From Escherichia phage vB_Eco_mar004NP2: 64,000 nucleotides of DNA. The notes below the pieces were generated by a model. That model did not search any database. It was not told the DNA's origin and saw only the letters and a program-made list of their open reading frames with translations. The translations under genes were made by a program, and so were the position numbers. Location of the stretch: the sequence record OR896837.1; one strand, written 5' to 3'. Positions 43,096-63,625 of the stretch are shown here, in pieces. The first letter of the stretch is position 1; each line of letters begins with the position of its first letter.

Positions 43096-43118
43096 TAGCC
43101 CCTATATGGGGCTTTTTG
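43096..43118 (+). terminator. rho-independent terminator
   Basis: AGCCCC-TATA-TGGGGCT hairpin + TTTTTGTG. Confidence 0.55.
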
Positions 43119-43136
43119 TGTATTTGGGATATGTAA

Positions 43137-43445: not shown

Positions 43446-43472
43446 TTCTTGGCTTTTTCTTTATAAATGTAT

Positions 43473-43501
43473 TTGCTTTCAACTCAGTTTTGTTATATAA
43501 T
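43473..43501 (+). promoter_or_regulatory. sigma70-like promoter
   Basis: TTGCTT, 17 bp, TATAAT. Confidence 0.55.
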
Positions 43502-43532
43502 ATTTATATAAATTAATGAGAGATACAAATAA

Positions 43533-44504: not shown

Positions 44505-44554
44505 TACATAACCCTTTGCTACCCATCTACCATATCGGAATTATAAAGTGGTTA

Positions 44555-44583
44555 TTGACATTTTCGCCGCTTAGGTATATACT
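44555..44583 (+). promoter_or_regulatory. sigma70-like promoter in ligase intergenic region
   Basis: TTGACA, 17 bp, TATACT. Confidence 0.5.
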
Positions 44584-44646
44584 ATTATCATTCAGTTGAG
44601 GGATAGAAAGTTATGGCGAGGGTAAGCAAAGTTAGTTAAAATTGTA

Positions 44647-44676
44647 GTTGCTAAATGCTTAAATACTTGCTATAAT
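44647..44676 (+). promoter_or_regulatory. sigma70-like promoter
   Basis: TTGCTA, 18 bp, TATAAT. Confidence 0.45.
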
Positions 44677-44703
44677 ATTTATATAAATTGATAAGGAAGA
44701 AAT

Positions 44704-46246: not shown

Positions 46247-46264
46247 TCTGGTAAATTAAACCTA

Positions 46265-46297
46265 AGGGGAGGGGGCTATGCTCCTTCCCCTTTTTTG
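46265..46297 (+). terminator. rho-independent terminator
   Basis: GGGGAGGGGG...CCTTCCCC hairpin + TTTTTT. Confidence 0.5.
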
Positions 46298-46329
46298 CAT
46301 TTAGAAGGCACGAAAGCGTGCAAAGGAGA

Positions 46330-47802: not shown

Positions 47803-48689
47803 GTAGAATAACAGAACTACTTGATCTGAAAGGCATTGAGTATAAAGACACAGGTGGGGACATCCTCATCTGTTGTCTCAATCCAGATCATGACGATAAA
47901 CATCCAAGTTTGCGTATTGATCCTGAAACAGGTATTATGCACTGCTTGAGTTGTGGCTTCGGTAAAGGTATACCGAGCATTTACCATTATTTTAATGAGA
48001 CTCAGTACCGACAGTCTCCAAGACTATCGCAGGTACGTAAAAAGATTTCAGAGATTAGGAATGGATCTACGAATCTTGCAATTCCTGAATCTGCTTACCT
48101 TTTCGAAGGTGATTTCCGAGGTATAAGTTCTAAGACCTTGAAGAAATATTTTGCTTTCCAACACCAAGCAGATTGGGAGGGCAGAATTGTATTCCCAATC
48201 ACAGATGCTGTTGGACGCAATATCCTATTTTTGGGTCGTTCTATAAACAGTTCTGCCCCTCCTAAATACTTAGTAAAACCAAAACAAGTTTCACCACCGA
48301 TTTTCCCTGTACGATATAATACTCCAGTTCTTATTCTAGTTGAAGGTATCTTTGATATGCTGAACCTAGAGGATAATGGTATAGACTATGCTTCTTGCTG
48401 CTTTGGTACACATCAGTTTACTTCGGATAACATTGCAGATAAGTTCAGTCCTTATATTATTGCTGGTGTAAAAGTTGTTGTTATCTTACTAGATAATGAT
48501 GCTTCTGGTAATAAAACTGCACAAGCATTGGCTAAGCTAATTCGTACAAAAACGCGTTTAACACCTGTAGTTGCTAACTTTCTCCTACCTGAAGGCAAAG
48601 ATCCAGGTGATTTAAACAAAGATGAAATTGATATGTTAGCAAAACGTATTGAAATTTTAGTTGCTGAATCGCTTAAAGATTTGGTATAA
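47799..48689 (+). CDS. DNA primase (DnaG-like)
   Basis: Zn-finger CLNPDHDDKHPSLRIDPETGIMHCLSCG; Toprim EGIFDMLNL...DNDASG. Confidence 0.75.
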   Translation: MSRITELLDLKGIEYKDTGGDILICCLNPDHDDKHPSLRIDPETGIMHCLSCGFGKGIPSIYHYFNETQYRQSPRLSQVRKKISEIRNGSTNLAIPESAYLFEGDFRGISSKTLKKYFAFQHQADWEGRIVFPITDAVGRNILFLGRSINSSAPPKYLVKPKQVSPPIFPVRYNTPVLILVEGIFDMLNLEDNGIDYASCCFGTHQFTSDNIADKFSPYIIAGVKVVVILLDNDASGNKTAQALAKLIRTKTRLTPVVANFLLPEGKDPGDLNKDEIDMLAKRIEILVAESLKDLV

Positions 48690-48715
48690 TAGTCCTAAAT
48701 AACTGAGGAGCTACT

Positions 48716-49045
48716 ATGGAATATGTATATATTTATGCGGATGTTCCAGTGTATGATAGTGTAACACACAAAGAGGTTAAACTAGAGCGGTTTACAACAC
48801 TGGAGTCCCTTAATAAACGAAAGAATTTCCATTTATTTGGTGATCCTAAATTACCTGCATCTTATATTTACTTTAAAGTAAAAGATACAGGTCAAGAGGT
48901 ATACCTAACATATGATTGGGCTGTTGTAGAAAATACTGAGCAATCTATGAAAGCGCTAGATGCTTTTCTGCGTATAGATGAAGAATTTCGGGTACTAGAA
49001 AAGCAGCGCAATGAAATGCGTAAATTACTTCACACCTATAAATAG
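48716..49045 (+). CDS. hypothetical protein (109 aa)
   Basis: ORF with RBS GAGGAG. Confidence 0.45.
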   Translation: MEYVYIYADVPVYDSVTHKEVKLERFTTLESLNKRKNFHLFGDPKLPASYIYFKVKDTGQEVYLTYDWAVVENTEQSMKALDAFLRIDEEFRVLEKQRNEMRKLLHTYK

Positions 49046-49048
49046 TAT

Positions 49049-49077
49049 TTGCTATTATCCCAATATTTTGATATAAT
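49049..49077 (+). promoter_or_regulatory. sigma70-like promoter upstream of DNA polymerase
   Basis: TTGCTA, 17 bp, TATAAT. Confidence 0.55.
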
Positions 49078-49138
49078 ATATTGGTAAGTTAGAGAAGAAA
49101 CACTGAAGTTATACTTACTTACCAAGAGGAGATTAAAT

Positions 49139-51706
49139 TTGAAAATCGCAGTAGTTGATAAAGCTCTAAATAACACTCGTTATGATAAACATTTCCAGCT
49201 ATACGGCGAGGAAGTTGATGTATTCCATATGTGTAACGAGAAGTTATCCGGTCGTTTGCTCAAAAAGCATATTACTATCGGGACTCCGGAAAACCCATTT
49301 GACCCGAATGATTATGATTTTGTTATACTGGTAGGTGCCGAGCCTTTCCTGTACTTTGCAGGTAAGAAAGGCATTGGTGACTATACTGGTAAACGTGTAG
49401 AGTATAATGGATATGCTAACTGGATTGCGAGTATCAGCCCCGCCCAGTTACACTTTAAGCCTGAAATGAAACCAGTTTTCGATGCAACAGTAGAGAATAT
49501 CCACGATATTATCAATGGTCGTGAGAAGATTGCAAAAGCTGGTGATTACCGTCCTATTACTGACCCTGACGAGGCGGAAGAATATATCAAGATGGTGTAT
49601 AATATGGTTATCGGACCTGTCGCATTCGACTCCGAAACCTCAGCACTATACTGTCGAGATGGTTATCTGCTTGGTGTTTCTATGTCTCACCAAGAGTATC
49701 AGGGTGTATATATCGATTCTGATTGTCTCACAGAGGTTGCAGTATATTATCTCCAGAAAATTCTGGATAGTGAAAACCACACTATTGTTTTTCACAACTT
49801 GAAGTTTGATATGCACTTTTATAAGTACCATCTGGGACTTACTTTTGATAAAGCACATAAAGAACGCAGGCTCCATGATACCATGTTGCAGCATTATGTT
49901 CTAGATGAGCGTCGTGGTACTCATGGCTTGAAATCTCTAGCAATGAAGTATACCGATATGGGCGACTATGACTTTGAACTAGATAAGTTCAAGGAGGATT
50001 ACTGCAAAGCACATAAAATCAAGAAAGAAGATTTCACCTATGATTTAATTCCGTTTGATATTATGTGGCCTTACGCTGCAAAAGATACCGATGCCACCAT
50101 ACGTTTGCACAACTTCTTCTTATCAAAAATTGAGAAGAATGAAAAACTTTGCAGTCTGTATTATGATGTCCTAATGCCTGGTTGTGTATTTCTCCAGCGT
50201 GTTGAGGATCGTGGTGTACCTATTTCTATTGATCGTTTAAAAGAAGCTCAGTACCAGTTAACCCATAATCTGAATAAGGCTCGTGAGAAACTGTATACTT
50301 ATCCAGAAGTCGTTCAGCTAGAAAAAGACCAGAACGAGGCGTTTAACCCAAACTCTGTTAAGCAACTGCGTGTTCTTCTGTTTGATTATGTTGGCTTAAC
50401 TCCAACAGGTAAATTGACGGATACTGGGGCAGACTCTACAGATGCAGAAGCTCTGAATGAACTGGCTACGCAGCATCCAATTGCTAAGACTCTACTAGAG
50501 ATTCGTAAGCTGACTAAGCTGATCTCTACTTATGTTGAGAAGATTCTTCTGAGTATTGATGCAGATGGTTGCATTCGTACTGGTTTCCATGAACATATGA
50601 CTACTTCTGGTCGTCTGAGTTCTTCTGGTAAACTGAACCTGCAACAGTTACCTCGTGATGAATCTATTATCAAGGGTTGTGTAGTAGCTCCTCCCGGGTA
50701 TCGTGTAATTGCATGGGACTTAACAACTGCGGAAGTTTATTATGCTGCTGTTCTATCTGGTGATAGAAATATGCAACAAGTATTTATCAACATGAGAAAT
50801 GAACCTGATAAATACCCTGACTTCCACTCTAACATCGCACACATGGTATTTAAACTCCAATGCGAGCCTCGTGATGTTAAAAAGTTATTCCCAGCTCTGC
50901 GTCAGGCTGCTAAAGCAATCACCTTTGGTATTCTGTATGGTTCTGGCCCGGCTAAAGTAGCTCATTCTGTTAACGAAGCTCTTCTGGAACAGGCTGCTAA
51001 GACAGGTGAACCGTTTGTAGAGTGTACTGTTGCGGATGCGAAGGACTATATCGAAACTTACTTCGGTCAGTTCCCGCAGCTTAAGCGTTGGATTGATAAG
51101 TGTCACGACCAGATCAAGAATCATGGATTTATCTATAGTCACTTTGGTCGTAAACGTCGTCTGCATAATATCCATTCCGAAGACCGTGGTGTTCAGGGTG
51201 AAGAAATCCGTTCTGGATTTAACGCAATCATTCAGTCTGCTTCTTCCGACAGTCTCCTTTTAGGTGCTGTAGATGCAGATAATGAGATCATTTCTCTTGG
51301 CCTAGAACAAGAGATGAAGATTGTTATGCTAGTTCATGACTCCGTAGTTGCTATTGTTCGTGAAGACTTGATCGACCAATACAATGAAATCCTGATTCGT
51401 AATATTCAGAAAGACCGTGGTATTAGTATTCCTGGCTGTCCGATTGGTATTGATTCAGATTCTGAAGCAGGAGGTTCTCGTGACTATTCTTGTGGTAAGA
51501 TGAAGAAACAGCACCCATCAATCGCTTGTATTGATGATGATGAATATACTCGTTATGTCAAGGGTGTATTACTTGATGCAGAGTTCGAGTATAAGAAACT
51601 AGCTGCAATGGATAAAGAGCATCCAGATCATAGCAAGTACAAGGATGATAAGTTTATTGCTATATGTAAAGATTTGGATAACGTGAGAAGGATTCTCGGT
51701 GCTTAA
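49139..51706 (+). CDS. DNA polymerase, family A, with 3'-5' exonuclease domain
   Basis: Exo motif AFDSETSALY, motif B RQAAKAITFGILYG, motif C LVHDS; TTG start after AAGAGGAG RBS. Confidence 0.9.
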   Translation: MKIAVVDKALNNTRYDKHFQLYGEEVDVFHMCNEKLSGRLLKKHITIGTPENPFDPNDYDFVILVGAEPFLYFAGKKGIGDYTGKRVEYNGYANWIASISPAQLHFKPEMKPVFDATVENIHDIINGREKIAKAGDYRPITDPDEAEEYIKMVYNMVIGPVAFDSETSALYCRDGYLLGVSMSHQEYQGVYIDSDCLTEVAVYYLQKILDSENHTIVFHNLKFDMHFYKYHLGLTFDKAHKERRLHDTMLQHYVLDERRGTHGLKSLAMKYTDMGDYDFELDKFKEDYCKAHKIKKEDFTYDLIPFDIMWPYAAKDTDATIRLHNFFLSKIEKNEKLCSLYYDVLMPGCVFLQRVEDRGVPISIDRLKEAQYQLTHNLNKAREKLYTYPEVVQLEKDQNEAFNPNSVKQLRVLLFDYVGLTPTGKLTDTGADSTDAEALNELATQHPIAKTLLEIRKLTKLISTYVEKILLSIDADGCIRTGFHEHMTTSGRLSSSGKLNLQQLPRDESIIKGCVVAPPGYRVIAWDLTTAEVYYAAVLSGDRNMQQVFINMRNEPDKYPDFHSNIAHMVFKLQCEPRDVKKLFPALRQAAKAITFGILYGSGPAKVAHSVNEALLEQAAKTGEPFVECTVADAKDYIETYFGQFPQLKRWIDKCHDQIKNHGFIYSHFGRKRRLHNIHSEDRGVQGEEIRSGFNAIIQSASSDSLLLGAVDADNEIISLGLEQEMKIVMLVHDSVVAIVREDLIDQYNEILIRNIQKDRGISIPGCPIGIDSDSEAGGSRDYSCGKMKKQHPSIACIDDDEYTRYVKGVLLDAEFEYKKLAAMDKEHPDHSKYKDDKFIAICKDLDNVRRILGA

Positions 51707-52196
51707 TTTCAAATTGCCCGTATATGCTTTACGGGCGTTTGTATCAATTGAGCAAGAAGGTGATTATTCCGTAATTACAACAAGATATAATAAATATGTG
51801 CTAGATAACAGGAAGTTGCCTGGCACGTTTTCTCAACGTAGACTTATTCTATTTGAGAAACGGAAAGAATTACCATACAAGCTCTACCCTATTAGAGGTA
51901 GAATATCAATGTTGTCTCAATTAGTTGGGTCAAAGCGTAGCCAATTTATAGATTCTGATGGAAATCTTATTAACTGGAAGAAAACTACGTTCTATGATGT
52001 TGTCACCTCTAAAGTTTTGCATTCAGCTAGAATTTATAATGGAAAATACCAATGCTATGTGGCTAAAGTTCCTTATCCATTTGTATTATCCTATGTTCCA
52101 GCTTATATAAGCTATATTCTGGTAAATAATAGCCCTGTTATTTATCAAGTCCATCAAGAGGAGCCTGAAATTCCTAGACTTAGAATAAAATTATGA
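51699..52196 (+). CDS. hypothetical protein (165 aa)
   Basis: ORF coupled between polymerase and helicase. Confidence 0.4.
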   Translation: MLNFKLPVYALRAFVSIEQEGDYSVITTRYNKYVLDNRKLPGTFSQRRLILFEKRKELPYKLYPIRGRISMLSQLVGSKRSQFIDSDGNLINWKKTTFYDVVTSKVLHSARIYNGKYQCYVAKVPYPFVLSYVPAYISYILVNNSPVIYQVHQEEPEIPRLRIKL

Positions 52197-53545
52197 AGGT
52201 TGTTATATCTAATAAAGCCTATTTCAAGCCCGATGATGAACTTTGGGATTATTGTAGTAAGCAAACCACTTATCACATTGAGACAATGACTAGTAAATAC
52301 CCTATTATGTATAAGAATAGTGGTGTTGTTGCCAAAGAGATTAAGTGGATTCCTATTACGCGTCTGGACTTACTAGATGCTAAAGGAGTAAAATACGAAT
52401 TAGTCGATAAACGCACATTAGCTCCGGTAGATATACCAAAACCTAAGTTCAAGCTGCGTGAAGAAGACCAGCTCCCAATATATGAAGAGTGTGATGATAC
52501 CTGTATTATTAATGGTAAGCCTGGATTTGGCAAAACTATCCTAGCCCTTGCACTTGCGTATAAATTTGGCCAGAAAACTCTGGTAATTTGTACTAACACA
52601 TCTATTCGTGAGATGTGGGCAGCAGAAGTTCGTAAATGGTTTGGATTTGAGCCAGGTATTATAGGTTCTGGGAAATACAATATTGATCCACCAATTGTAG
52701 TCAGTAATATTCAAACAGTGAATAAACATGCGAATAATCTTTCTAAAGTATTCGGTACTGTTATAGTTGATGAAGTTCACCATTGTGTGGCTACAACTTT
52801 CATTAACTTCCTAGAAATATCATGTGCTCGCTATAAGATTGGGCTATCTGGAACATTAAAACGTAAAGATGGTCTACAAGTTATGCTCAAAGATTTCTTT
52901 GGATATAAGATCTTTAGCCCACCGGTTAATAATACTGTTGCACCTACAATCCACAGGTACTCCGTACCAGTTGAGTTGTCTGGAAACCAAAACGTACCGT
53001 GGGCATTACGTGCTAATGATGTGTATAATCATCCTGAATATCGAGAAACTATTATAAACCTAGCACATTTATATGTGAATATGGGACATAAAGTACTCAT
53101 TGTAAGTGATAGAACAGAGTTAATCCAAACAGTACTAGAAGCTCTTGCACAACGTGGTGTTACAACATATGAAATTATAGGGTCAACTCACTTGGATGAC
53201 CGATTAAAAATTCAGGAAGATATAGCAAAAGGTGGGCCTTGTGTACTTGCAGCAGCTCAAAGTATCTTCTCTGAAGGTATTTCCCTTAATGAGCTGTCTT
53301 GTTTAATAATGGGAAGCCTCATTAATAATGAATCTCTCATTGAACAGCTTGCAGGACGTGTTCAACGTATTGTCGATGGTAAACTCGACCCTATTGTTGT
53401 AGATCTAATTATGAAAGGTGGCACTGGACTAAGGCAGGCTTCTGGACGTATGGCAGTATATCATAACAATGGGTGGAAAACTATTACCATGACTCCTGAG
53501 AAAGCAGTTCAATTAGCTAAAATTGCATTTGGCAACAGCTCATAA
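52193..53545 (+). CDS. SF2 DNA helicase
   Basis: Walker A GKPGFGKT, Walker B VIVDEVHH, C-terminal helicase domain. Confidence 0.75.
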   Translation: MKVVISNKAYFKPDDELWDYCSKQTTYHIETMTSKYPIMYKNSGVVAKEIKWIPITRLDLLDAKGVKYELVDKRTLAPVDIPKPKFKLREEDQLPIYEECDDTCIINGKPGFGKTILALALAYKFGQKTLVICTNTSIREMWAAEVRKWFGFEPGIIGSGKYNIDPPIVVSNIQTVNKHANNLSKVFGTVIVDEVHHCVATTFINFLEISCARYKIGLSGTLKRKDGLQVMLKDFFGYKIFSPPVNNTVAPTIHRYSVPVELSGNQNVPWALRANDVYNHPEYRETIINLAHLYVNMGHKVLIVSDRTELIQTVLEALAQRGVTTYEIIGSTHLDDRLKIQEDIAKGGPCVLAAAQSIFSEGISLNELSCLIMGSLINNESLIEQLAGRVQRIVDGKLDPIVVDLIMKGGTGLRQASGRMAVYHNNGWKTITMTPEKAVQLAKIAFGNSS

Positions 53546-53558
53546 ATGATGTATAATA
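53530..53558 (+). promoter_or_regulatory. sigma70-like promoter
   Basis: TTGGCA, 17 bp, TATAAT, then conserved ATAAATTTGAGAGAGA leader. Confidence 0.45.
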
Positions 53559-53629
53559 ATATACATAAATTTGAGAGAGAAAGTTTCGGATTGATAAGAA
53601 AGTCCGAAGCAGAAAAATAAAAATTTTAG

Positions 53630-53659
53630 TTGCTAAATTCTCTCGAAATCTAGTATAAT
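53630..53659 (+). promoter_or_regulatory. sigma70-like promoter
   Basis: TTGCTA, 18 bp, TATAAT. Confidence 0.45.
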
Positions 53660-53766
53660 ATATACATAAATTCGAGGAGAAAACAAAAATTAAATTCTTC
53701 GATTATGAAAAGCTATACTTACTAGCTAGAGGAAATTCCGACCTAATTATTAAGTTATTCAAAAGA

Positions 53767-54051
53767 ATGCTCATAGAGCCTGATGCTCACCAATTATTGG
53801 TCGGTTCCTCATTCATTTTGAATGAGTCAACAATAGTTGATAATCCAAATAAATTGTCTAATAGACAACTGGCAGAATATCTAGGAATTTTAAGTCTACG
53901 AAATTATGCCGAATACAAGTTTACAAACGATCCTAGTTTGAACATACAATATGTTCCAGTATGGATACCACGTTTAGTAATCGACACTAACCCACTAATC
54001 GCAATTAACAAATCGAAATTAATCTTTAAAGAGGAAATAAAATATGGCTAA
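53767..54051 (+). CDS. hypothetical protein (94 aa)
   Basis: ORF. Confidence 0.35.
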   Translation: MLIEPDAHQLLVGSSFILNESTIVDNPNKLSNRQLAEYLGILSLRNYAEYKFTNDPSLNIQYVPVWIPRLVIDTNPLIAINKSKLIFKEEIKYG

Positions 54052-54817
54052 GTCTTGGGGCGAAACTACTGGCGGTTCTAACGATAAAATCGAATTCCTG
54101 AAGTTCAACAACGGTATCACTCGTGTCCGTATCGTTTCTGGTGTTCTTCCACGTTATGTCTATTGGCTGACTAATAAAGAGGGTAACGTAGCTCCTTTTG
54201 AATGTCTCCGTTTTAACCGTGACAAAGAGAGCTTTGTTCGTGGTAAAGCTGATCCGGTTCATGAGATGGGCTTCTTCGAGAAAGAGCTGGATAAAGACGG
54301 TAATCGTGTTCCGCTGAAACCGAAGAAAAACTATATCGCTTTTGTTATCGACCGTTCTGATAACAAACTGAAAGTAATGGAAGTCAAGGCTACTATTCTG
54401 AAAGGCATCCAGTCTATCATGAAGCAGTTGAATCTGGCAACTCCGTTTGATATTGATATTTCTATCGAGAAAAAAGGTAAAGGTTTCGATACTGAGTATG
54501 ATGTACAGCAGATTGCTGCTATGCAGTTCCAGATTAAGCTGCAAGATCCTAACAGTGCAGAATCTAAGCAATATGCTGCAGATGTAGATCTGATCGGTGA
54601 AGCTATGTGTGATGAAGATGGCGACATCATTAAGTTCGAAAAAGTTCCTTCTCTGGAACAAACCTATCCGGTTCCTACCTATGAAGAGCAGAAAGAAGCA
54701 ATTCAAGCCTTCATGGAGGGTCGTGAGAATAAAGATGATGATGCCAAATCTGGTAATAGCAATGCAGGCTCCCAGAAAGGTATTGACACAGAAGCTGCAA
54801 GCGATCTGGACGACTAA
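54044..54817 (+). CDS. putative ssDNA-binding protein with acidic C-terminal tail
   Basis: Highly expressed-type codon usage; acidic tail ...EAASDLDD; sits inside the replication/recombination module. Confidence 0.4.
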   Translation: MAKSWGETTGGSNDKIEFLKFNNGITRVRIVSGVLPRYVYWLTNKEGNVAPFECLRFNRDKESFVRGKADPVHEMGFFEKELDKDGNRVPLKPKKNYIAFVIDRSDNKLKVMEVKATILKGIQSIMKQLNLATPFDIDISIEKKGKGFDTEYDVQQIAAMQFQIKLQDPNSAESKQYAADVDLIGEAMCDEDGDIIKFEKVPSLEQTYPVPTYEEQKEAIQAFMEGRENKDDDAKSGNSNAGSQKGIDTEAASDLDD

Positions 54818-54822
54818 TAAAT

Positions 54823-54849
54823 AGAGGGGCTTCGGCCCCTTTCTTTTTA
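54823..54849 (+). terminator. rho-independent terminator
   Basis: AGGGGC-TTCG-GCCCCT hairpin + TTTCTTTTT. Confidence 0.65.
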
Positions 54850-54853
54850 ACTT

Positions 54854-55831
54854 ATGAGAATATTATTTAGTGCTGATCATCATATTAAGCTGGGCCAAGA
54901 TAAGATACCCAAAGAATGGCAGAAGCGTCGCTTCCTGATGCTAGGAGAACGGTTAAATGATATATTCCATAATCATAACTGTGATTTGCATATTATTGGT
55001 GGTGATTTATTTGATCATTCCGACCCGTCGTCGGAAGAAGTAGAACTTCTAGAAAAATTTATGTCTAGGCTAGATCATATAGGAATGGTATTTACAGGTA
55101 ATCATGAATTAATAACTAAGACTATTTCATGCCTATATCATTATGCAGGAGTTATTAATAAAGTAACGAGTGGTAAGTGGGAAGTAATTACCAAACCATA
55201 TCGTTCCCCTGAATTTGATATTGTTCCATATGACGAAATCCATAAATCTAAGTGGAAACCTCCTGTATCAAAACTATGTTTCACGCATGTTCGTGGTGAA
55301 ATCCCTCCACATGTAAAACCAGAAATTGATCTAACTAAGTACAACTGTTATGATACTGTAATTGCTGGCGATTTACATTCTTATACTAATAGCCAGACTA
55401 TCGGATCTACTAGACTTCTCTACCCAGGATCTCCATTAACTACATCGTTCCATAGAGAACGCACAAAAGGTACAAATGGTTGCTTTATCATTGATACCGA
55501 CACATTAAAAGTAGAATGGATTGAACTAGGTGATTTACCACAACTGATTCGTAAAACAATCGGAGCAGGTGAAGAGATGGAACCTAGTGATTATGATCGT
55601 GTAGTCTATGAAGTTACTGGTGACGTTGTTCAATTAAAGTCTATTAAAGACTCTGATTTGTTAGATAAGAAGATTAACCATCGAGTTACTAAAGACGCTA
55701 AGTTAAATCTTGTTGATCTTGATATGTTAGGGGAACTTGAACTTTACTTCCGTGAAGTCGAGAAGCTGTCTCAAGGCGACATTGATAGAATCTTGGCTAG
55801 AGCTGCGAAATATGTCAAAGATTACAATTAA
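54854..55831 (+). CDS. SbcD/Mre11-like nuclease
   Basis: Metallophosphoesterase motifs DHH, GGDLFD, GNHE. Confidence 0.8.
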   Translation: MRILFSADHHIKLGQDKIPKEWQKRRFLMLGERLNDIFHNHNCDLHIIGGDLFDHSDPSSEEVELLEKFMSRLDHIGMVFTGNHELITKTISCLYHYAGVINKVTSGKWEVITKPYRSPEFDIVPYDEIHKSKWKPPVSKLCFTHVRGEIPPHVKPEIDLTKYNCYDTVIAGDLHSYTNSQTIGSTRLLYPGSPLTTSFHRERTKGTNGCFIIDTDTLKVEWIELGDLPQLIRKTIGAGEEMEPSDYDRVVYEVTGDVVQLKSIKDSDLLDKKINHRVTKDAKLNLVDLDMLGELELYFREVEKLSQGDIDRILARAAKYVKDYN

Positions 55832-57650
55832 GACACTAAAATTTAGTAACGTTATGTCTTACGGTAGGGACATCGTAATTCATTTCGATAAGAATCCAGT
55901 TACTCAGTTAATCGGAGGAAACGGTCTAGGGAAGTCCACTATTGCTACTGTTATTGAGGAATTGTTTTATAGCAAGAACTCACGTGGTATCAAGAAGGAC
56001 GCCCTATTCTCTTGGGGTTCTCCGAAGAAAGAGTATGATATGCATGCTTACTTCTCGAAAGATGAAGATGAGTATGAATTGCATAAAGTAGTTAAATCAA
56101 CTGCTAAGGTTACACTGATTAAGAATGGAGAAGATATCAGTGGACACACAGCAACTCAAACGTACAAGATGATTGAAGAGATTATGGGTGGTGACTTCCA
56201 AACATTCACTAAACTAATCTATCAATCTGTTGGTTCCAATCTAGACTTCCTCAAAGCAACAGATGCAACACGTAAGGCTTTTCTTGTTAACTTGTTCAAT
56301 CAAGAACAGTATAAAGAAATGTCAGAAACTATTAAGGCTGACCGTAAAGAAATAGCAAATACCTTAAATAATTTGCAGGGCCAAATGGCTGTAATTACAA
56401 AAATCCTTAATGGAAAGAATAACTTGGGAACCTTACAAGAACCAGTCGAAGTACCAGAATTTGATGAAGAACCATTAGCACAAGAACTTACAGAATCGAA
56501 AATTAAGGCGGCATTAGCCAAGTCTCAAGAGGCTAATATTACTAAATTGCGTAATTTGGACAAAGCTGTACAAGTTGCCGAACAATCTTTCGAGCCTTTC
56601 AAAAATTTGCCTGCGCCCACCGACCAAAATGAAGAGATCTCGAGTGTTACGCGTGACCTAACGATTGTGACCTCACGTGCGGGCGAAGTCAAGAAACGTT
56701 ATCAGAAGTTCAAGCAAGAGGCTTCAAATACTGAATGTCCTACTTGTGGTACTCACCTGGATACAACTGCTGCTCAAAAAGCAATGGATATGGCTAGAAC
56801 AGAATATGATCCTCTGTTCAAAGAGAAGCAATCTCTTGAAACCAAGCTAGAACAGCTGAAGAAAGAACAACTTGAGTACACTACGTATATTAGAGCAAAG
56901 GATGCTTTGGATAAAGCAGTAGCAGCTAGAGACGAGTTCAAAAATTCAATGAGTGATGCTTCTTTTGAAGAACTCAATGTGCAAAACCTACAGGTGCAAA
57001 TACGACAATTAGAACAGGAAATTGCTGATGGACGTTCTAAGGTTGCAATTGCCAAAGAGCATAATGCAAATGTTGAATTAGCCAATGCAAAATATAAAGC
57101 GAAACTAGAACAGATTGAGAAAGCTGAGGCAGAAATGTCTGAGATTACTTCCAAACTGGATGAAGTATCAGAAGCTGTTGCTGATCTCGATATTCTGATC
57201 GCCGCATTGAAAAATCTGGTAGGGTATAAGCTAGAGCATAGTGTGAAAGTATTTGAAGAACTAATTAATAAATACCTTTCCATTATGACTGGTGGTAAGT
57301 TCGCACTTGGATTTGAACTTGATGAAACAAAATTACAAGTAGTAATCTTCAATGATGGAAACCGTACCAGTATGGAGAACTGCTCTACTGGTCAGCAAAG
57401 TCGAATCAACCTAGCAACTCTGTTAGCTATTCGAATGCTACTAACATCTATTAGTAAAGTTAATATTAATCTTCTATTCCTTGATGAAGTAATTAGCTTT
57501 ATTGATACGAAAGGACTTGACACCCTTGTTGAATTATTAAATGAGGAAGAAAGTCTAAACTCTATCATTGTTTCTCATGGGCATACGCATCCATTGGCCC
57601 ATAAGATTACTGTCAAAAAAGATGCAGAAGGATTTTCCTACTTAGAATAA
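55812..57650 (+). CDS. SbcC/Rad50-like ATPase
   Basis: Walker A GGNGLGKST, long coiled coil, C-terminal LLFLDEVISFID; start set at ATG 55812. Confidence 0.8.
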   Translation: MSKITIKTLKFSNVMSYGRDIVIHFDKNPVTQLIGGNGLGKSTIATVIEELFYSKNSRGIKKDALFSWGSPKKEYDMHAYFSKDEDEYELHKVVKSTAKVTLIKNGEDISGHTATQTYKMIEEIMGGDFQTFTKLIYQSVGSNLDFLKATDATRKAFLVNLFNQEQYKEMSETIKADRKEIANTLNNLQGQMAVITKILNGKNNLGTLQEPVEVPEFDEEPLAQELTESKIKAALAKSQEANITKLRNLDKAVQVAEQSFEPFKNLPAPTDQNEEISSVTRDLTIVTSRAGEVKKRYQKFKQEASNTECPTCGTHLDTTAAQKAMDMARTEYDPLFKEKQSLETKLEQLKKEQLEYTTYIRAKDALDKAVAARDEFKNSMSDASFEELNVQNLQVQIRQLEQEIADGRSKVAIAKEHNANVELANAKYKAKLEQIEKAEAEMSEITSKLDEVSEAVADLDILIAALKNLVGYKLEHSVKVFEELINKYLSIMTGGKFALGFELDETKLQVVIFNDGNRTSMENCSTGQQSRINLATLLAIRMLLTSISKVNINLLFLDEVISFIDTKGLDTLVELLNEEESLNSIIVSHGHTHPLAHKITVKKDAEGFSYLE

Positions 57651-57653
57651 AAC

Positions 57654-58136
57654 ATGGCTGTAGATAGTAGAGAGAAAGGTAAACGTGGTGAATATCAGGT
57701 AAGAGATATTCTACGCGAGCGTACAGGTCTTGAGTGGGAACGTGTTCCTGGCTCTGGTGCTTTTGGCCAGAGCCACGGACTGAAAGGTGACATCTACCTT
57801 CCACCACAAAGCGGACACATTAGTAAATACTGCTTCGAAGTTAAGTGGTATAAAGATGATAATATATCAAGTAATTTATTTAATGTCGGTGAATCCACTC
57901 TAGAGAAGTGGTGGCAGCAATGCTCACGTGAAGGTGAGCAGATGAACTCCAAGTCTGCATTAATATTCAAAAAAGACAGAGGACAGTGGTTAATAGCTTT
58001 GGATAGCGCAGACCCGATGGTTGACAACTTAATGAGTCGTACCCATATGGTGTTAAATAAGAAAGACATGGAAATCGTAATTGGTTTATTTGAACCGTGG
58101 CTACATCATGCATCTGTTGAGGACTTAATTAAATAA
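57654..58136 (+). CDS. PD-(D/E)xK-type nuclease-like protein (resolvase-like)
   Basis: GDIY...EVK motif pattern; position between SbcC-like gene and flap endonuclease. Confidence 0.4.
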   Translation: MAVDSREKGKRGEYQVRDILRERTGLEWERVPGSGAFGQSHGLKGDIYLPPQSGHISKYCFEVKWYKDDNISSNLFNVGESTLEKWWQQCSREGEQMNSKSALIFKKDRGQWLIALDSADPMVDNLMSRTHMVLNKKDMEIVIGLFEPWLHHASVEDLIK

Positions 58137-59011
58137 TGAGTAAATCCTGGGGAAAATTTATTGAAGAAGAGGAAGCTGAAATGGCTTCCCGTCGTAACCT
58201 AATGATTGTTGATGGAACTAACTTAGGCTTCCGCTTCAAACATAACAATAGTAAAAAACCATTTGCCTCAAGTTATGTTTCCACTATTCAGTCTCTAGCA
58301 AAATCTTATTCTGCTAGAACTACAATAGTTTTAGGGGATAAAGGAAAGTCTGCATTCCGCCTAGAGCATCTTCCAGAGTATAAAGGGAATCGAGATGAGA
58401 AATACTCTCAGCGTACGGAAGAGGAAAAAGCGTTAGATGAGCAGTTTTTCGAGTATTTGAAAGATGCTTTCGAACTATGTGAAACTACATTCCCAACCTT
58501 CACTATTCGTGGTGTAGAAGCAGATGATATGGCAGCTTATATTGTTAAGCTGATTGGGCATCTATATGATCATGTTTGGCTAATTTCTACCGATGGTGAC
58601 TGGGATACTTTATTAACTGATAAAGTTTCTCGCTTCTCTTTTACAACACGTCGTGAATATCATCTTCGTGATATGTATGAGCACCATAATGTTGACGATG
58701 TAGAGCAGTTTATCTCTCTGAAAGCAATTATGGGTGATTTAGGGGATAATATCCGTGGTGTTGAAGGTATTGGGGCAAAACGCGGGTATAATATTATTCG
58801 TGAATTTGGTAACGTTCTGGATATTATTGATCAGCTTCCACTACCTGGAAAACAGAAATATATACAGAATTTAAATGCTTCGGAAGAATTGCTTTATCGA
58901 AACCTAATTTTAGTTGATTTACCTACCTACTGTGTGGACGCTATTGCTGCTGTAGGTCAAGATGTATTAGATAAGTTTACAAAAGATATTTTGGAGATTG
59001 CAGAACAATGA
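58136..59011 (+). CDS. 5'-3' exonuclease / flap endonuclease
   Basis: FEN signatures MIVDGTNLGFR, EADD, STDGD, GD.GDN.RGVEGIG. Confidence 0.85.
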   Translation: MSKSWGKFIEEEEAEMASRRNLMIVDGTNLGFRFKHNNSKKPFASSYVSTIQSLAKSYSARTTIVLGDKGKSAFRLEHLPEYKGNRDEKYSQRTEEEKALDEQFFEYLKDAFELCETTFPTFTIRGVEADDMAAYIVKLIGHLYDHVWLISTDGDWDTLLTDKVSRFSFTTRREYHLRDMYEHHNVDDVEQFISLKAIMGDLGDNIRGVEGIGAKRGYNIIREFGNVLDIIDQLPLPGKQKYIQNLNASEELLYRNLILVDLPTYCVDAIAAVGQDVLDKFTKDILEIAEQ

Positions 59012-59454
59012 TTAAAATTAAATTAACTCATCCAGATTGTATGCCTAAGATTGGTTCCGAAGATGCCGCAGGTATGGATCTGCGAGCATTCTTTGGTACA
59101 AACCCTGCTGCAGATTTACGTGCTATTGCGCCAGGCAAATCCCTAATGATTGACACCGGTGTCGCGGTAGAAATTCCGCGAGGTTGGTTCGGTTTGGTGG
59201 TTCCTCGTAGCTCTTTAGGTAAGCGCTATTTGATGATTGCAAACACCGCAGGGGTGATCGACTCAGACTATCGTGGTACTATTAAGATGAACCTCTATAA
59301 TTACGGTTCTGAAATGCAAACTCTGGAGAATTTCGAGAGACTTTGTCAGCTAGTGGTATTGCCACATTACTCAACTCATAATTTTGAAATCGTTGATGAG
59401 TTAGAAGAGACTGTACGTGGAGAAGGAGGATTTGGAAGTTCAGGAAGTAAGTAA
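59008..59454 (+). CDS. dut: dUTPase
   Basis: Motifs AGMDLRA, GVIDSDYRG, GGFGSSG. Confidence 0.9.
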   Translation: MIKIKLTHPDCMPKIGSEDAAGMDLRAFFGTNPAADLRAIAPGKSLMIDTGVAVEIPRGWFGLVVPRSSLGKRYLMIANTAGVIDSDYRGTIKMNLYNYGSEMQTLENFERLCQLVVLPHYSTHNFEIVDELEETVRGEGGFGSSGSK

Positions 59455-59478
59455 TCTACATATAAAATAAATAATAAA

Positions 59479-59513
59479 CCCCAGTGGATTTTGTCCACTG
59501 GGATTTTCTTTTA
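59479..59513. terminator. bidirectional rho-independent terminator between early and late genes
   Basis: CCCAGTGGA-TTTTG-TCCACTGGG hairpin flanked by A-rich and T-rich runs. Confidence 0.65.
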
Positions 59514-61283
59514 TTGTGATACTAATTGTACCTTTAATTGCTCAAGCTCTTTCTCTAGATCTTCAATCCGTTTAATAAGATCTTGCACAACATGCATAGT
59601 GTCAAGAAGCATTGGAGTTGTATCTAATTCCTTTTGCTCCTGCTCTATTCCGTCATCATTATAAAATTTTCTAGTTTTTACATAAAGTGGTTCTATAGTC
59701 TCTACTTGCTGAGCAATAACCCCACGTCGGACACGAGATTTTTCATCGTTATTATATACAAAGGATTGGAATTCTAATCCTTTTAATACCTCGATGGACT
59801 TAGTTGCGTCTATAGCCTTAATATCATGCTTTAAGCGAGAATCAGATACAGCATTTAATTGCAAAGTATAGGTTGCTGAAGCACCTGGCCACCAAGAATA
59901 AAAATAAATACTATTATTATTCGGCTGAATTTTTAAACGCACACCAAATTTATTATCATCATCTCCCGCTACCTGCCAACAAGAATCTGCAAATGAGCCT
60001 AAGTCATTATGAATTAATCCAAAATGTGCAGATGTCTTATACCCTGCGGAAGAAGACTGGGAACCGCTCAATATACTATTAAAGTTAAATGTACTACCTA
60101 TATTGACCTCGTTCTGAGAAAGAGTACCTTGTACCCAGCCAGTCTGAGACCACGCCATGCCAGTAACTAATCTAGCTTTAAAACGATCCGTTACAAAATC
60201 CCCATTTATCTACAAGCTGGGCGGAATTCGATTTACCGGTAGATTTATTGTCTATTAGTAGTTCAGTAGAGTAGGTGCCACCAATAGTAGCTTTAGCTCG
60301 TAGTGTACTTACAGCCTCACTACTAGTACCTACTTTATACTCAGATAGTACACTCCCGCCATAAACAGTAGTACCAGTATTAGGTTTGACAGCATCACCA
60401 CTAATAACACTCCACGAAGTCTTTGCAGCCACGAACCCACCAGAAGCACGGATTACCCAGACACCTATAAAGCTGTTTGGAATAATAGTACCTTTTATTC
60501 CATAACGCCCATAAACAGGGTCCGCTAAGTTTGCATCAAAACTAAATCCGTATTGGTTATCAGGATTAACTACGGCGAATGATTTAGATGCACCTCCAGG
60601 AGCGGCACCTAAGCCGTTTTCACCACCAATCGCCCCAATAAGACCAAATCTAGATGAATATCTATTAAGCGCTTCTTCATATGCACCAGCAATAGCGCCA
60701 GGAAAACTACCAGTAATATTGGGTGCTGCAGCTTCTGATATTGAACCAGCTTGACCAGCATCCCCCCCCCCCCCACCGTCACCACGAGCGAATAACCCTT
60801 TGATTGAATTTAGTTGCACACCATTACGATCTGGGACGCGGAAAGTAGTGGTACCATCTCCCGTAGAATATTTCCCACGTTGTCCTACATCTGCTAACCA
60901 AACTGAATCATCTATAGCTCCAACCATTTGTGCATACGCCCAAAGTTCAGGCCAGTCAGCCCTGTTAAGAAGCTGCCCATCAGAAACTACCTCATAAGGT
61001 TGAATATACGCACGGCTATCTCGAAGATGAAAATCCCCACCCCGTAGTTCATAACACCATTCATTGTGGGTCCTACTGTGCCAGTATTAAGTTTGTTCTC
61101 CACCCAACGCTTAGTTGCGGCATCATAGTCACTAACAGGATCTCCAGCAAGAGGGGTAGATCCAATAGGACGCACATTTAGCCATGCTGCACGGTCTGCT
61201 AAGTCACTCAGGTTATTATTTTTATTAAGTGACTCATTTTTAAGTTTTGTAATATCCGTAGGAATTACTGTTTTAGTTACCAT
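59511..61283 (-). pseudogene. tail fiber protein with C-terminal intramolecular chaperone/autoprotease domain, split into three ORFs by two frame breaks
   Basis: N-terminus MVTKTVIP...PLAGDPVSDYDAATKRWV; open frame continues in another phase (HNEWCYELRGGDF...); C-terminal ORF carries the SDSRLK autocleavage-type motif. Confidence 0.55.
60762..60774. repeat. 13-nt C/G homopolymer inside the tail fiber coding sequence
   Basis: Read directly; encodes the Gly run GDGGGGGD on the minus strand. Confidence 0.9.
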
Positions 61284-61292
61284 TATAAAACC

Positions 61293-61571
61293 TTATGCCC
61301 ATACTCTAAGAGGCTGTTCTAGCTGAACTATAAAAGGCTCGAAGGATTCGTAAGTAAAGGATTCATCAAGAATCCTTACATTAATATAATACCCTTCATT
61401 ACGGATGCATCTAGGTTCCTCATCACCTAGCGGAGAGATTTCAGTATAAGTATATCCAATTTCGTCAAGCATTATTTGGTTTTGCAAATTTTCATTAGTA
61501 TCCCACTCTATTTTTAAGAGAAAATCTTTATATGCTGATTTATCCGTGAATTTTAGGATTATATCTCTCAT
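61293..61571 (-). CDS. hypothetical small protein between the two fiber genes
   Basis: ATGA overlap with upstream fiber gene stop. Confidence 0.4.
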   Translation of the reverse strand: MRDIILKFTDKSAYKDFLLKIEWDTNENLQNQIMLDEIGYTYTEISPLGDEEPRCIRNEGYYINVRILDESFTYESFEPFIVQLEQPLRVWA

Positions 61572-63625
61572 ACATACTCCTTCATTTGTCTATCAGTTAG
61601 TTCCTTATGCCAGATTCTAAAGTTTCTAACGTGCCCGAAAAGATGACGTTCGCCCCTAGTTGTTTGTCCTCCAATCCTTATAGTAGCCGTTGATTGTATG
61701 TATCTCCATTCCGTTTTTGTTTCGCTTGATATTCTGGCATTACTTACACAGCAAGTATTGTAATCACTCTTTACTCTCATTCCCATGATCATCTTTTTTA
61801 GTTTTGCATTCTCGTAAACCCTTCTGTTTGATTTACCTATATCGCAATAAGGGAAACCATCATTATCGCCTTCGGCAGATCCGAAAGCAAGAATAATAGC
61901 CGCTTCGGTTTGATGACCTCTGGTATCAAAAACACGTGGCGCTGCACTTGGCGTTATACTCCAGTTTTTATGAGCTTCCACAAGTACTGTAAACGGCAAA
62001 TTGTAAAGGTTGTTTTTTATTGGTAATGTGACCATATCGCTTGCCCGTGTTACTGGAGTCTCTTCTGTAATAATAAACGATGAAGCGCACGCCCCGCCTT
62101 CAACTTGAGGGGTAGCTACCTGTAAGTACTCTCCACCAGAATAAGTGCCAGGTGAAACAGGTGGAGCAATTTGGATCTGAGAGCTAACCATATTATCAAT
62201 AGCTTCAGATTGATATGTAACCTCGAAATAAATCCATCCATTAGATTCTTTCTCCGCTCGGGCGGTTATTCTTGCAGCCCCTACTTCCGTTTTTCTAATG
62301 GACATATCTGTTATATTAAGATATGCATCTGCTAGATAAAAATATGCGGATCCGTCATATCTTTCAAATCTTATACGACATTGTATATTAGCACTATCGC
62401 TTTTTACACGACATGATGTTGTAACATACTTTTCAGTTCCGGTAACATCGACACCTCTTCCTCCTGAAATCGCAGCGATATTCATTGCCGTATTTGTCCC
62501 AATTTTTTCGTCCTTTATTTGAAACCGCCCATAAGTAAATCCAAACTCATCAACACCACTTTCTGTTATAGTTACACTTGTTGTAGCTTCCCACTTAGAT
62601 GGCGTAAGTGAGTTAAGATGATAGTTAGTTCTTTGCCCCTCAATGAGCAAACCATCCTTTTCAAATCTAGGTTCATTAATCCCCGCAACAGTTAATACAC
62701 CTGATTTATTAATATATGTCGCAGTTGATGCACGTGTAAAGCTAACAATCTTGTCACTGGGCAGTGTTATTTCCTCATCACCGACTGTTATTTTTTTTTT
62801 ATAGTCTGGCGCAAAGCCGGTGATCATATCTAGAGAATCGTTAAACGGTATCCATACATCTGGAAGAGGTTGAATGTCGGGGGTAGAATTAGCAGCAGCT
62901 TCTGATCTATCAGCCTCAGTTTTTGAACGATCGGCTTCAGTTTTAGCAGTATTAGCACTATTAGCAGCATTAGTAGCTTGTTTTCCTGCTTCAGTAGCAG
63001 AATTAGCAGCACTAGTTGCAGAATTAGCAGCTTGGTTTTTTAGCGTGGTAGTTTCTGTTATCGCGCTATTCTTAATGCCTTGTGTGTCTGTTTTTAACTG
63101 CGCAACATCTGCCTTTATAGCTGTTGTCTCTGTTACAGCACTGTTTTTAATGGCCTGAGTATCTGATTTTAGCTGCTCAACATCTGATTTTAAGCCTTGA
63201 ATAGTAGTTACTGACTGACTAGCTGAAGTTGCGGAACTAGCTGCGTTATTCTCACTAGCTTTGGCTTTAGTCTCACTAGCTTTGGCTTTAGTCTCACTAG
63301 CTTTTGCATTAGTCTCGGATACTTTAGCAGCGGATGCAGATGTTGCAGCTTGTCTAGCGAATGTTTCTGCTTCATCCCTAAAACCTTTAGAATTGGCAGC
63401 AGACGCAGCAGCATTAGTCTCACTAATTTTAGCGTTAGTTTCGCTAATTTTTGCAGCCGCAGCAGATTTAGCAGCAGCCTCTATAGAAGATACTAACTCA
63501 TTAGCAGTAATAGAGCTAATAGAATTTCCAAGAGTTACTGTGTATCTAGGAAATTTACTAGCAGTAGCTTTAGTATCATCAATATTTAATATTTGTTGTA
63601 CAATAATCTTAGTAGTTATTGCCAT
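61568..63625 (-). CDS. L-shaped/side tail fiber protein (685 aa)
   Basis: N-terminus [18 protein letters not shown]..., repetitive SETNAKASETKAKASE coiled-coil repeats typical of side tail fibers. Confidence 0.7.
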   Translation of the reverse strand: MAITTKIIVQQILNIDDTKATASKFPRYTVTLGNSISSITANELVSSIEAAAKSAAAAKISETNAKISETNAAASAANSKGFRDEAETFARQAATSASAAKVSETNAKASETKAKASETKAKASENNAASSATSASQSVTTIQGLKSDVEQLKSDTQAIKNSAVTETTAIKADVAQLKTDTQGIKNSAITETTTLKNQAANSATSAANSATEAGKQATNAANSANTAKTEADRSKTEADRSEAAANSTPDIQPLPDVWIPFNDSLDMITGFAPDYKKKITVGDEEITLPSDKIVSFTRASTATYINKSGVLTVAGINEPRFEKDGLLIEGQRTNYHLNSLTPSKWEATTSVTITESGVDEFGFTYGRFQIKDEKIGTNTAMNIAAISGGRGVDVTGTEKYVTTSCRVKSDSANIQCRIRFERYDGSAYFYLADAYLNITDMSIRKTEVGAARITARAEKESNGWIYFEVTYQSEAIDNMVSSQIQIAPPVSPGTYSGGEYLQVATPQVEGGACASSFIITEETPVTRASDMVTLPIKNNLYNLPFTVLVEAHKNWSITPSAAPRVFDTRGHQTEAAIILAFGSAEGDNDGFPYCDIGKSNRRVYENAKLKKMIMGMRVKSDYNTCCVSNARISSETKTEWRYIQSTATIRIGGQTTRGERHLFGHVRNFRIWHKELTDRQMKEYV
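62791..62800. repeat. 10-nt T/A homopolymer inside the tail fiber coding sequence
   Basis: Read directly; encodes KKK on the minus strand. Confidence 0.9.

What the first reader, a model, noticed from the sequence alone, without database searches (positions are those of the whole stretch)
60181..60209. Second tail-fiber frame break lies in a 29-nt window with C4 and A4 runs
The middle ORF ends at 60178 and the C-terminal ORF's frame is open from a TAG at 60210..60212, so the shift is confined to 60181..60209, which contains CCCC (60200..60203) and AAAA (60195..60198). The C-terminal ORF carries the SDSRLK-type autocleavage motif, which only makes sense fused to an upstream fiber shaft.
Basis: partly seen in the sequence, partly recalled or inferred. 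Interest (0 to 1): 0.5.

Follow-up and report, generated by a model that had tools for sequence, protein, structure and literature searches.

The report
Frameshifted phage side tail-fibre gene
One extra A splits a T5-like phage's side tail-fibre gene (ltfB), which a one-base deletion upstream has already broken, so this isolate almost certainly makes no LtfB fibre; this is an ordinary loss-of-function mutation in a dispensable gene, not a recoding signal.

Summary
On the minus strand, the 249-aa ORF (60178..60927) and the 215-aa ORF (59511..60158) are consecutive pieces of one gene. The frame change must lie in 60181..60209.

Nine near or moderate relatives were aligned. Eight carry an intact 573-590 aa gene, and the ninth (KS_S14) is broken elsewhere in the gene. 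All read straight through the junction (...QLVDNGDFVTDRFKARLVTGMAWSQ...).

The alignment pins the break to one extra A in GAT-AA-TGG, which becomes GAT-AAA-TGG. On the + strand this is the TTT at 60205..60207.

The gene is an ltfB-type lateral tail-fibre gene of a Tequintavirus. It has a C-terminal Peptidase_S74 intramolecular chaperone, with Ser480 and Lys485 in the motif SDSRLK. A 1-nt deletion upstream (G5 to G4, 61035..61038) also breaks it.

Repairing both indels restores a 590-aa protein identical to relatives apart from two in-frame length differences.

An independent Logan assembly of SRA run SRR27112525 reproduces both breaks exactly. The genome is probably Citizen Phage Library isolate CPL00229, sequenced on Illumina NovaSeq and isolated on E. 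coli K-12. A real pseudogenising mutation is therefore much more likely than a sequencing error.

There is no evidence for programmed frameshifting or for independent translation of the 215-aa piece. Interest is low.

The parts
59511..61283 (-). The whole ltfB-type lateral tail-fibre gene, here a pseudogene in three ORF fragments (98, 249 and 215 aa). After repair it encodes 590 aa.
   Evidence: intact orthologues; PDB 8hqz_d E = 1.6e-132; MAR004NP2_00162 is called the ltfB orthologue in PMC6563131.
60987..61283 (-). N-terminal fragment ORF of 98 aa: 83 native residues followed by 15 out-of-frame residues. This is the only fragment with a plausible ribosome-binding site (TAAGG 8 nt upstream).
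61185..61190 (-). (GCA)2 where relatives have (GCA)3. This is an in-frame private deletion of one Ala.
61035..61038 (-). First frame break: a G4 run where five close relatives have G5 (-1 nt). Translation then stops at TAG 60987..60989.
60762..60774 (-). Poly-G tract of G13, in frame, encoding GGGGG. It is length-polymorphic among lineages (G6, G7, G8, G10, G13).
60178..60927 (-). Middle fragment ORF of 249 aa. The last 9 residues (KWGFCNGSF) are out of frame. There is no Shine-Dalgarno sequence before its ATG.
60181..60209 (-). The 29-nt interval in which both reading frames are open. This is the finding itself.
60205..60207 (-). Second frame break: coding-strand AAA where relatives have AA (+1 nt). 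GAT AAT GGG GAT becomes GAT AAA TGG GGA.
59511..60158 (-). C-terminal fragment ORF of 215 aa. It holds about 104 aa of the receptor-binding tip plus a 111-aa S74 intramolecular chaperone. Its ATG is internal Met376 of the intact protein and has no Shine-Dalgarno sequence.
59829..59846 (-). SDSRLK motif: predicted nucleophile Ser480 and base Lys485 of the autocleavage site.
   Evidence: (alignment to 6f45); T5 pb1 Ser1264/Lys1269 in PMC4690869.
59688..59846 (-). Pfam PF13884 Peptidase_S74 match (residues 480-532 of the repaired protein).
59476..59506 (.). Bidirectional terminator-like hairpin between the end of ltfB and the convergent dUTPase gene.

Best explanation
The window comes from a T5-like phage (Tequintavirus, mar004NP2 species). 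The region 59511..61283 (- strand) is its ltfB-type lateral tail-fibre gene, inactivated by two real single-base slippage mutations. The finding is the second of them: one extra A (A2 to A3, 60205..60207). It moves the reading frame by +1 at codon 360 of a 590-aa protein, so the middle piece runs 9 wrong codons into a TAA stop. The receptor-binding tip and the S74 intramolecular chaperone are left in another frame. An upstream 1-nt deletion (G5 to G4, 61035..61038) already stops translation after 98 codons. Neither downstream fragment has a ribosome-binding site. No full-length LtfB can therefore be made, and the chaperone/autocleavage domain has nothing to fold or cleave. By analogy with DT57C/DT571-2 and fibreless T5, the phage stays viable because lateral fibres are dispensable on rough (K-12) hosts. 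Shown here: the indel position, the intact orthologues, the domain content, and reproduction of the breaks from the reads. Inferred: that no protein is made, that the loss is tolerated because of the K-12 isolation host, and the identity of the isolate.
For: 1. Aligning the window with SPLA5b, mar004NP2, KS_S14, PMBT29, JLBYU40, IrisVonRoten and T5_ev219 shows identical sequence on both sides of a single extra A.
2. Removing that A and restoring the G gives a 590-aa ORF identical to relatives except for the in-frame Ala and poly-Gly length differences.
3. Eight fetched relatives have intact 573-590 aa genes. Seventy phage records carry at least 80% of the junction segment as one place, and the listed full-coverage rows are single pieces.
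4. Logan contigs assembled independently from SRR27112525 are 100% identical to window 57777..63274, including both breaks.
5. The three fragments are NCBI WWD13551-13553. These accessions fall in the Citizen Phage Library batch. That project's methods are Illumina NovaSeq 2x150 with Shovill assembly, and isolation on E. coli BW25113.
6. Over 46 kb the window has six private 1-nt indels. Three are intergenic, two are in ltfB and one is in a gene of the variable tRNA region. None is in a replication gene. All 3n-nt indels lie in the fibre genes. This looks selection-filtered, not random error.
7. Inactivating LtfB does not affect growth on laboratory strains (PMC4728585). Laboratory-adapted fibreless T5 is viable (PMC11313276).
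Against: All ten small indels are private to this genome, while three relatives hardly differ from each other by indels. ltfB has 4 indels and 0 substitutions against mar004NP2, a ratio that looks more like artefact than ordinary divergence. I could not inspect the reads. The Logan assembly uses the same reads, so it excludes assembler error but not a library or platform artefact. The link to CPL00229 and to Illumina sequencing rests on accession adjacency, not on the record itself.
Confidence: 0.8

Rival explanations
1. Sequencing or assembly artefact: the phage has an intact ltfB, and the extra A (together with the missing G) is an error in the deposited sequence.
For: The indels are private to this genome and sit in short runs or repeats. 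There are four indels and no substitutions in 1.77 kb against mar004NP2. A third private 1-nt indel breaks another conserved gene at 18946.
Against: An independent k-mer assembly (Logan) of the run gives the same sequence over 5.5 kb and 24.9 kb contigs. The probable platform is Illumina NovaSeq, for which A2 to A3 is not an error-prone context. The 1-nt indels avoid all essential genes, and the fibre-gene indels include four in-frame ones. Many longer A/T runs in the 46 kb compared are unchanged.
Confidence: 0.12
2. Recoding: ribosomes shift +1 at the end of the middle ORF (UCG UUU UAA A, 60178..60186). There, tRNA-Phe can re-pair on UUU one base downstream while the stop codon is decoded slowly, as at the RF2 (prfB) site. 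This would fuse the middle and C-terminal pieces with only 8 residues changed.
For: The sequence UUU-UAA-A lies exactly where the two frames overlap, and a +1 slip gives ...F-K-A-R-L-V-T-G-M-A-W..., the native continuation. From memory, UUU-U is a shift-prone P-site context in E. coli; this was not checked in a paper here.
Against: The site was created by the mutation itself. Relatives read CGT TTT AAA in frame with no stop, so nothing is conserved as a recoding signal. No strong Shine-Dalgarno-like stimulator lies upstream. The first break terminates translation about 800 nt earlier, and the middle ORF has no ribosome-binding site, so few ribosomes would reach the site.
Confidence: 0.02
3. 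The 215-aa ORF is translated on its own from ATG 60158 and acts in trans, as a free tip or chaperone.
For: It starts with ATG and contains the complete S74 domain. GenBank annotates it as a separate 'tail fiber protein'.
Against: No GGAG, GAGG, AGGA or AAGG lies within 20 nt upstream. The Met is internal (Met376) in every homologue, and no homologue has a gene boundary there. In T5 pb1, cleavage needs residues of the folded trimeric fibre upstream of the scissile Ser, contributed in cis and from neighbouring chains (PMC4690869). The ORF boundary is explained fully by a private 1-nt insertion.
Confidence: 0.03

Closest known systems
LtfB of T5-like phages DT57C and DT571/2 (branched L-shaped tail fibres; Golomidova et al. 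2016, PMC4728585), and its orthologue MAR004NP2_00162 in vB_Eco_mar004NP2 (PMC6563131)
   Same: It occupies the same genomic slot, downstream of the large fibre gene and convergent with dut. Residues 14-370 match DT57C LtfA 526-875 (E = 1.6e-132). It has a C-terminal pfam13884 autocleaving chaperone. The nucleotide sequence is identical to MAR004NP2_00162 except for four indels.
   Different: Here the gene is interrupted twice (-1 and +1) and cannot give a full-length product. The partner fibre gene (685 aa) is not an ltfA orthologue and has no S74 domain.
T5 pb1 (Ltf) C-terminal intramolecular chaperone (PDB 4UW7/4UW8; Garcia-Doval et al. 2015, PMC4690869), and endosialidase-type S74 domains
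   Same: It has the S-D-x-R-x-K motif with Ser and Lys five residues apart, lies at the extreme C-terminus of a trimeric fibre, and matches Pfam PF13884.
   Different: phmmer against PDB sequences found no direct match to pb1; the similarity is at family level only. In this window the domain is separated from its substrate by the frame break.
Fibreless T5 hd mutants (for example T5hd1) and the engineered ltfB nonsense mutants of DT571/2
   Same: The lateral fibre is lost in a phage that remains viable on laboratory E. coli.
   Different: These are spontaneous 1-nt indels in an environmental isolate. The effect on virion morphology has not been examined.

Membership tests
Peptidase_S74 / intramolecular chaperone of fibres and spikes (PF13884) | Significant match to the family profile | tested here: met
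   46.9 bits against a gathering cut-off of 22, E = 3.4e-12, residues 480-532. PF13884 is also recorded for the 215-aa ORF itself.
Peptidase_S74 / intramolecular chaperone of fibres and spikes (PF13884) | Catalytic Ser and Lys five residues apart at the cleavage site | tested here: met
   S480-D-S-R-L-K485, compared with Ser1264/Lys1269 of T5 pb1. It aligns to SDRRIK of PDB 6f45.
Peptidase_S74 / intramolecular chaperone of fibres and spikes (PF13884) | Domain is covalently joined to the C-terminus of the fibre it folds | tested here: not met
   It is joined in all relatives. In this window a +1 frame break at 60205..60207 and a -1 break at 61035..61038 separate it from the fibre.
Peptidase_S74 / intramolecular chaperone of fibres and spikes (PF13884) | Autoproteolytic release after trimer folding | not testable with these tools
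   This needs protein expression and mass spectrometry.
LtfB-type lateral tail-fibre subunit of Tequintavirus | Sequence homology to DT57C LtfA/LtfB shaft and docking region | tested here: met
   8hqz_d E = 1.6e-132, query residues 14-370 against chain residues 526-875. tblastn also hits DT57C ltfB and DT571/2 ltfA.
LtfB-type lateral tail-fibre subunit of Tequintavirus | Position in the tail-fibre locus next to dut/D15/D14 | tested here: met
LtfB-type lateral tail-fibre subunit of Tequintavirus | Single uninterrupted ORF of about 570-600 aa | tested here: not met
   There are three fragments of 98, 249 and 215 aa. It is therefore a pseudogene member, not a functional one.
Programmed ribosomal frameshift site | Two-frame organisation and slippery site conserved in relatives | tested here: not met
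   All relatives have one continuous frame and lack the extra A.
Pseudogene caused by a frameshift mutation | Frame disruption relative to intact orthologues, reproduced from the reads, with downstream pieces lacking translation signals | tested here: met
   ribosome-binding-site inspection. Read-level allele frequencies were not available.

The most novel reading that the evidence does not exclude
ltfB of the mar004NP2 clade may be a slippage-prone contingency gene. Its poly-G tract is G6, G7, G8, G10 or G13 in different lineages. It is out of frame in three independent genomes. The present isolate has gained four slippage indels without a single substitution. The phage population might therefore switch the LtfB fibre branch on and off (phase variation of host range), as reported for poly-G tracts in Campylobacter phages (recalled from memory, not checked here). 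On that reading the A2-to-A3 break would be one more product of the same process, not a switch in itself.
Probability: 0.12. Interest if true: 0.5.

Novelty: already known. Interest (0 to 1): 0.15.

Why it matters
The main value is for annotation. The three 'tail fiber protein' CDSs deposited for this genome are fragments of one ltfB pseudogene. Host-range predictions for this isolate should therefore not count an LtfB receptor-binding tip. The result fits the known dispensability of T5-type lateral fibres on rough hosts. It may relate to this isolate's reported failure to propagate on a clinical E. coli strain, if the window really is CPL00229. The finding does not reveal a new mechanism.

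Tried and rejected
1. Programmed frameshifting was rejected. Relatives have a single frame and lack the extra base, and there is no conserved slippery site.
2. Independent translation of the 215-aa ORF was rejected as unlikely. It has no ribosome-binding site, and its Met is internal in all homologues.
3. I looked for the AAA allele elsewhere. There were no exact matches in IMG/VR, GTDB genomes or JGI metagenomes. The wild-type 40-mer is also absent from IMG/VR. The allele therefore has no independent confirmation beyond the one SRA run.
4. A search of papers for SRR27112525 found nothing.
5. I tested whether the genome is generally error-ridden. There are only six private 1-nt indels in 46 kb and none in essential genes. 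That does not fit a poor-quality long-read assembly.
6. Transcriptional slippage on the G13 tract as a rescue for the first break was rejected. The out-of-frame stop at 60987 precedes the tract.
7. No structure prediction was run. A monomer model of a trimeric fibre would not change the conclusion.

Full report
**What is in the sequence.**
On the minus strand the window carries the tail-fibre end of a T5-like genome. It runs from a 685-aa fibre gene (61568..63625) and a 92-aa ORF to three consecutive ORFs of 98 aa (60987..61283), 249 aa (60178..60927) and 215 aa (59511..60158). These are followed by a hairpin terminator and the convergent dUTPase, flap endonuclease, D14 and SbcCD-like genes.

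The 249-aa ORF ends at TAA 60178..60180. The frame of the 215-aa ORF is closed upstream by TAG 60210..60212. AAAA (60195..60198) and CCCC (60200..60203) are present.

**Where the break really is.**
Megablast against 50,697 phage records found 13 records covering at least 80% of 59400..61400. The best are 99.3-99.5% identical: SPLA5b, vB_Eco_mar004NP2, KS_S14 and PMBT29.

SPLA5b, mar004NP2, PMBT29, JLBYU40, IrisVonRoten, T5_ev219, Baret and phC17 each annotate one uninterrupted gene of 573-590 aa at this position. Nucleotide alignment shows that the window differs from the closest ones by exactly four indels and nothing else:

| Site (window coordinates) | Change in the window | Effect |
|---|---|---|
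| 61185..61190 | (GCA)3 to (GCA)2 | In frame, one Ala lost |
| 61035..61038 | G5 to G4 | -1, the first frame break |
| 60762..60774 | Poly-G tract is G13; G7, G10 or G6 elsewhere | In frame here |
| 60205..60207 | One extra A: GAT AAT GGG becomes GAT AAA TGG | +1, the second frame break |

The flanks of the extra A are identical in seven relatives. The inserted base must therefore be one of the three A's (TTT on the + strand), not a base of the C4 or A4 run.

Restoring the G and deleting the A gives a 590-aa ORF. It is identical to relatives apart from the Ala and poly-Gly length differences. The native junction reads ...AQLVDNGDFVTDRFKARLVTGMAWSQTGW.... The window instead reads ...AQLVDKWGFCNGSF-stop, and Met376 becomes the apparent start of the 215-aa ORF.

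**What the gene is.**
- The repaired protein matches chain d of PDB 8hqz (DT57C 'L-shaped tail fiber assembly', 1076 aa) at E = 1.6e-132. Residues 14-370 align to 526-875, and the C-terminus aligns to 915-1072.
- Pfam finds Peptidase_S74 at residues 480-532, with 46.9 bits against a cut-off of 22.
- The match begins at Ser480 of SDSRLK, with Lys485 five residues on. This geometry equals the catalytic Ser1264/Lys1269 of T5 pb1. In pb1, cleavage also needs residues of the correctly folded trimeric fibre upstream (PMC4690869).
- Michniewski et al. identify the mar004NP2 copy (MAR004NP2_00162) as the ltfB orthologue of DT57C-type branched lateral fibres (PMC6563131).
- The 215-aa ORF therefore holds the last ~104 residues of the receptor-binding tip plus the 111-aa intramolecular chaperone.
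- tblastn with a 163-aa segment spanning the junction finds 70 phage records holding at least 80% of it as one place. The listed full-coverage rows are single pieces of exactly 163 codons, down to 41% identity, and include ~70-78 kb E. coli phage genomes outside the T5 group.
- Every further cluster member long enough to span the junction also reads through it. No homologue has a gene boundary here.

**Error or mutation?**
- The exact 249-aa, 215-aa and 89-aa (see below) products are on record from only one other place: Logan contigs of SRA run SRR27112525.
- Contig _10 of that run is 100% identical to window 57777..63274. It carries both breaks and the G13 tract. Contig _1 is 24.9 kb. The indels are therefore in the reads and are not the product of one assembler.
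- The three fragments are also NCBI proteins WWD13551-13553, labelled 'tail fiber protein [Escherichia phage vB_Eco_mar004NP2]', on a 98,746-nt contig.
- Those accessions fall just after Citizen Phage Library records: Baret is OR896834/CPL00220, and OR896836 is CPL00224, starting at WWD13340 with 100 features. OR896837 is absent from the collection.
- I infer that the window is CPL00229, an unnamed Tequintavirus isolated on E. coli BW25113. That project sequenced phages on Illumina NovaSeq 2x150 and assembled with Shovill (PMC10893117). An A2-to-A3 miscall is very unlikely on that platform.
- Genome-wide comparison of window 17321..63478 with SPLA5b, PMBT29 and mar004NP2 gives 96 private substitutions and ten private small indels for the window.
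- Of the six 1-nt indels, three are intergenic. One of these lies in the T-tract of a terminator-like hairpin. Two are in ltfB. One breaks a 315-aa gene, annotated variously as 'lipoprotein' or 'band 7 domain-containing protein', in the variable tRNA region.
- None of the 1-nt indels touches a replication gene. All four 3n-nt indels lie in the two fibre genes. This distribution looks filtered by selection, as real mutations would be.

**Against this.**
ltfB shows 4 indels and 0 substitutions against mar004NP2, although the genomes differ by about 0.29% elsewhere. I cannot explain that ratio. It keeps an artefact alive as a minority possibility.

**Consequence.**
Ribosomes starting at ATG 61283 (TAAGG 8 nt upstream) read 83 native and 15 foreign codons and stop at 60987. 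The middle frame has no ATG, GTG or TTG before 60927. Neither 60927 nor 60158 is preceded by a Shine-Dalgarno sequence. Full-length LtfB cannot be made, and the S74 domain is orphaned.

This is tolerable. LtfB knock-outs of DT571/2 grow normally on laboratory strains (PMC4728585), and fibreless T5 is viable (PMC11313276). The probable isolation host is K-12. CPL00229 was reported not to propagate on a clinical E. coli strain, but that is only a correlation.

**Alternatives.**
- Programmed frameshifting is not supported, because relatives have one frame.
- The mutation happens to create UCG UUU UAA A at the end of the middle ORF. A +1 slip of tRNA-Phe there would rejoin the native frame with 8 residues changed. 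The site is not conserved and has no evident stimulator, and it lies downstream of the first break. I give this 2%.
- Independent translation of the 215-aa piece gets 3%.

**Verdict.**
The position is refined to 60205..60207. The feature is an ordinary frameshift in a known, dispensable tail-fibre gene, so novelty and interest are low.

The more interesting side observation is the length-polymorphic poly-G tract in the same gene. It is out of frame in three independent genomes: KS_S14 with G6, and SRR13494487 and SRR23801862 with G8.

Noticed in passing
window 60762..60774 (- strand); L001, L002, L003, L018, L019, L020: The poly-G tract inside ltfB varies in length among otherwise near-identical phages. 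It is G6 in KS_S14 (gene broken), G7 in mar004NP2, PMBT29, phC17 and a common Logan lineage, G8 in two independent Logan assemblies SRR13494487 and SRR23801862 (gene broken), G10 in SPLA5b and G13 in this window. It could be a hypermutable or phase-variable tract, or a sequencing-prone site.
   Followed up: partly
window 61035..61038 (- strand): This is the first frame break of the same gene. It is a private 1-nt deletion in GGGGTGGGGG (G5 to G4), which terminates translation at 60987 after 98 codons.
   Followed up: yes
window 18255..19203 (- strand), indel at about 18942..18946: A private 1-nt insertion (A4 to A5) splits a conserved 315-aa gene into 89-aa and 208-aa ORFs. The gene is annotated 'lipoprotein' or 'band 7 domain-containing protein' in relatives and lies in the tRNA region. 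Six near-identical relatives lack the extra A. The same break is present in Logan contig SRR27112525_1.
   Followed up: partly
window 59511..61283 compared with L001 and L003: ltfB has 4 private indels but 0 substitutions relative to mar004NP2 and KS_S14, while the rest of the genome differs from mar004NP2 by about 0.29%. The indel-to-substitution ratio is unexplained. Possible causes are recent recombination followed by slippage, or selection.
   Followed up: partly
window 61568..63625 (- strand), especially about 63270..63480: The large fibre gene upstream is 685 aa here but 796 aa in mar004NP2, SPLA5b and PMBT29, and 557 aa in KS_S14. The difference lies in an N-terminal Ala/Ser/Lys-rich tandem-repeat region (SETNAKASETKAKASE...). 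The Logan contig ends inside it at 63274, so the repeat number may be collapsed in short-read assemblies. The protein has no Pfam hit and no S74 domain. Two private in-frame +AAA insertions lie at about 62800 and about 63469.
   Followed up: no
window about 12896..17325 compared with SPLA5b (L004 + L005): Relative to SPLA5b, the window lacks about 8 kb in several blocks of the tRNA-rich region. This is typical of the variable, deletable region of T5-like genomes.
   Followed up: no
window 36190..36200: An intergenic (AT)n microsatellite between the two Sir2-like ORFs differs in length in all four genomes compared.
   Followed up: no
window 46270..46300 (+ strand): SPLA5b annotates the DnaB-like helicase as starting inside a GC-rich hairpin plus T-tract that looks like an intrinsic terminator. 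The ATG 50 nt downstream, preceded by AAGGAG, is the more likely start. The window's private +T lies in that T-tract.
   Followed up: partly
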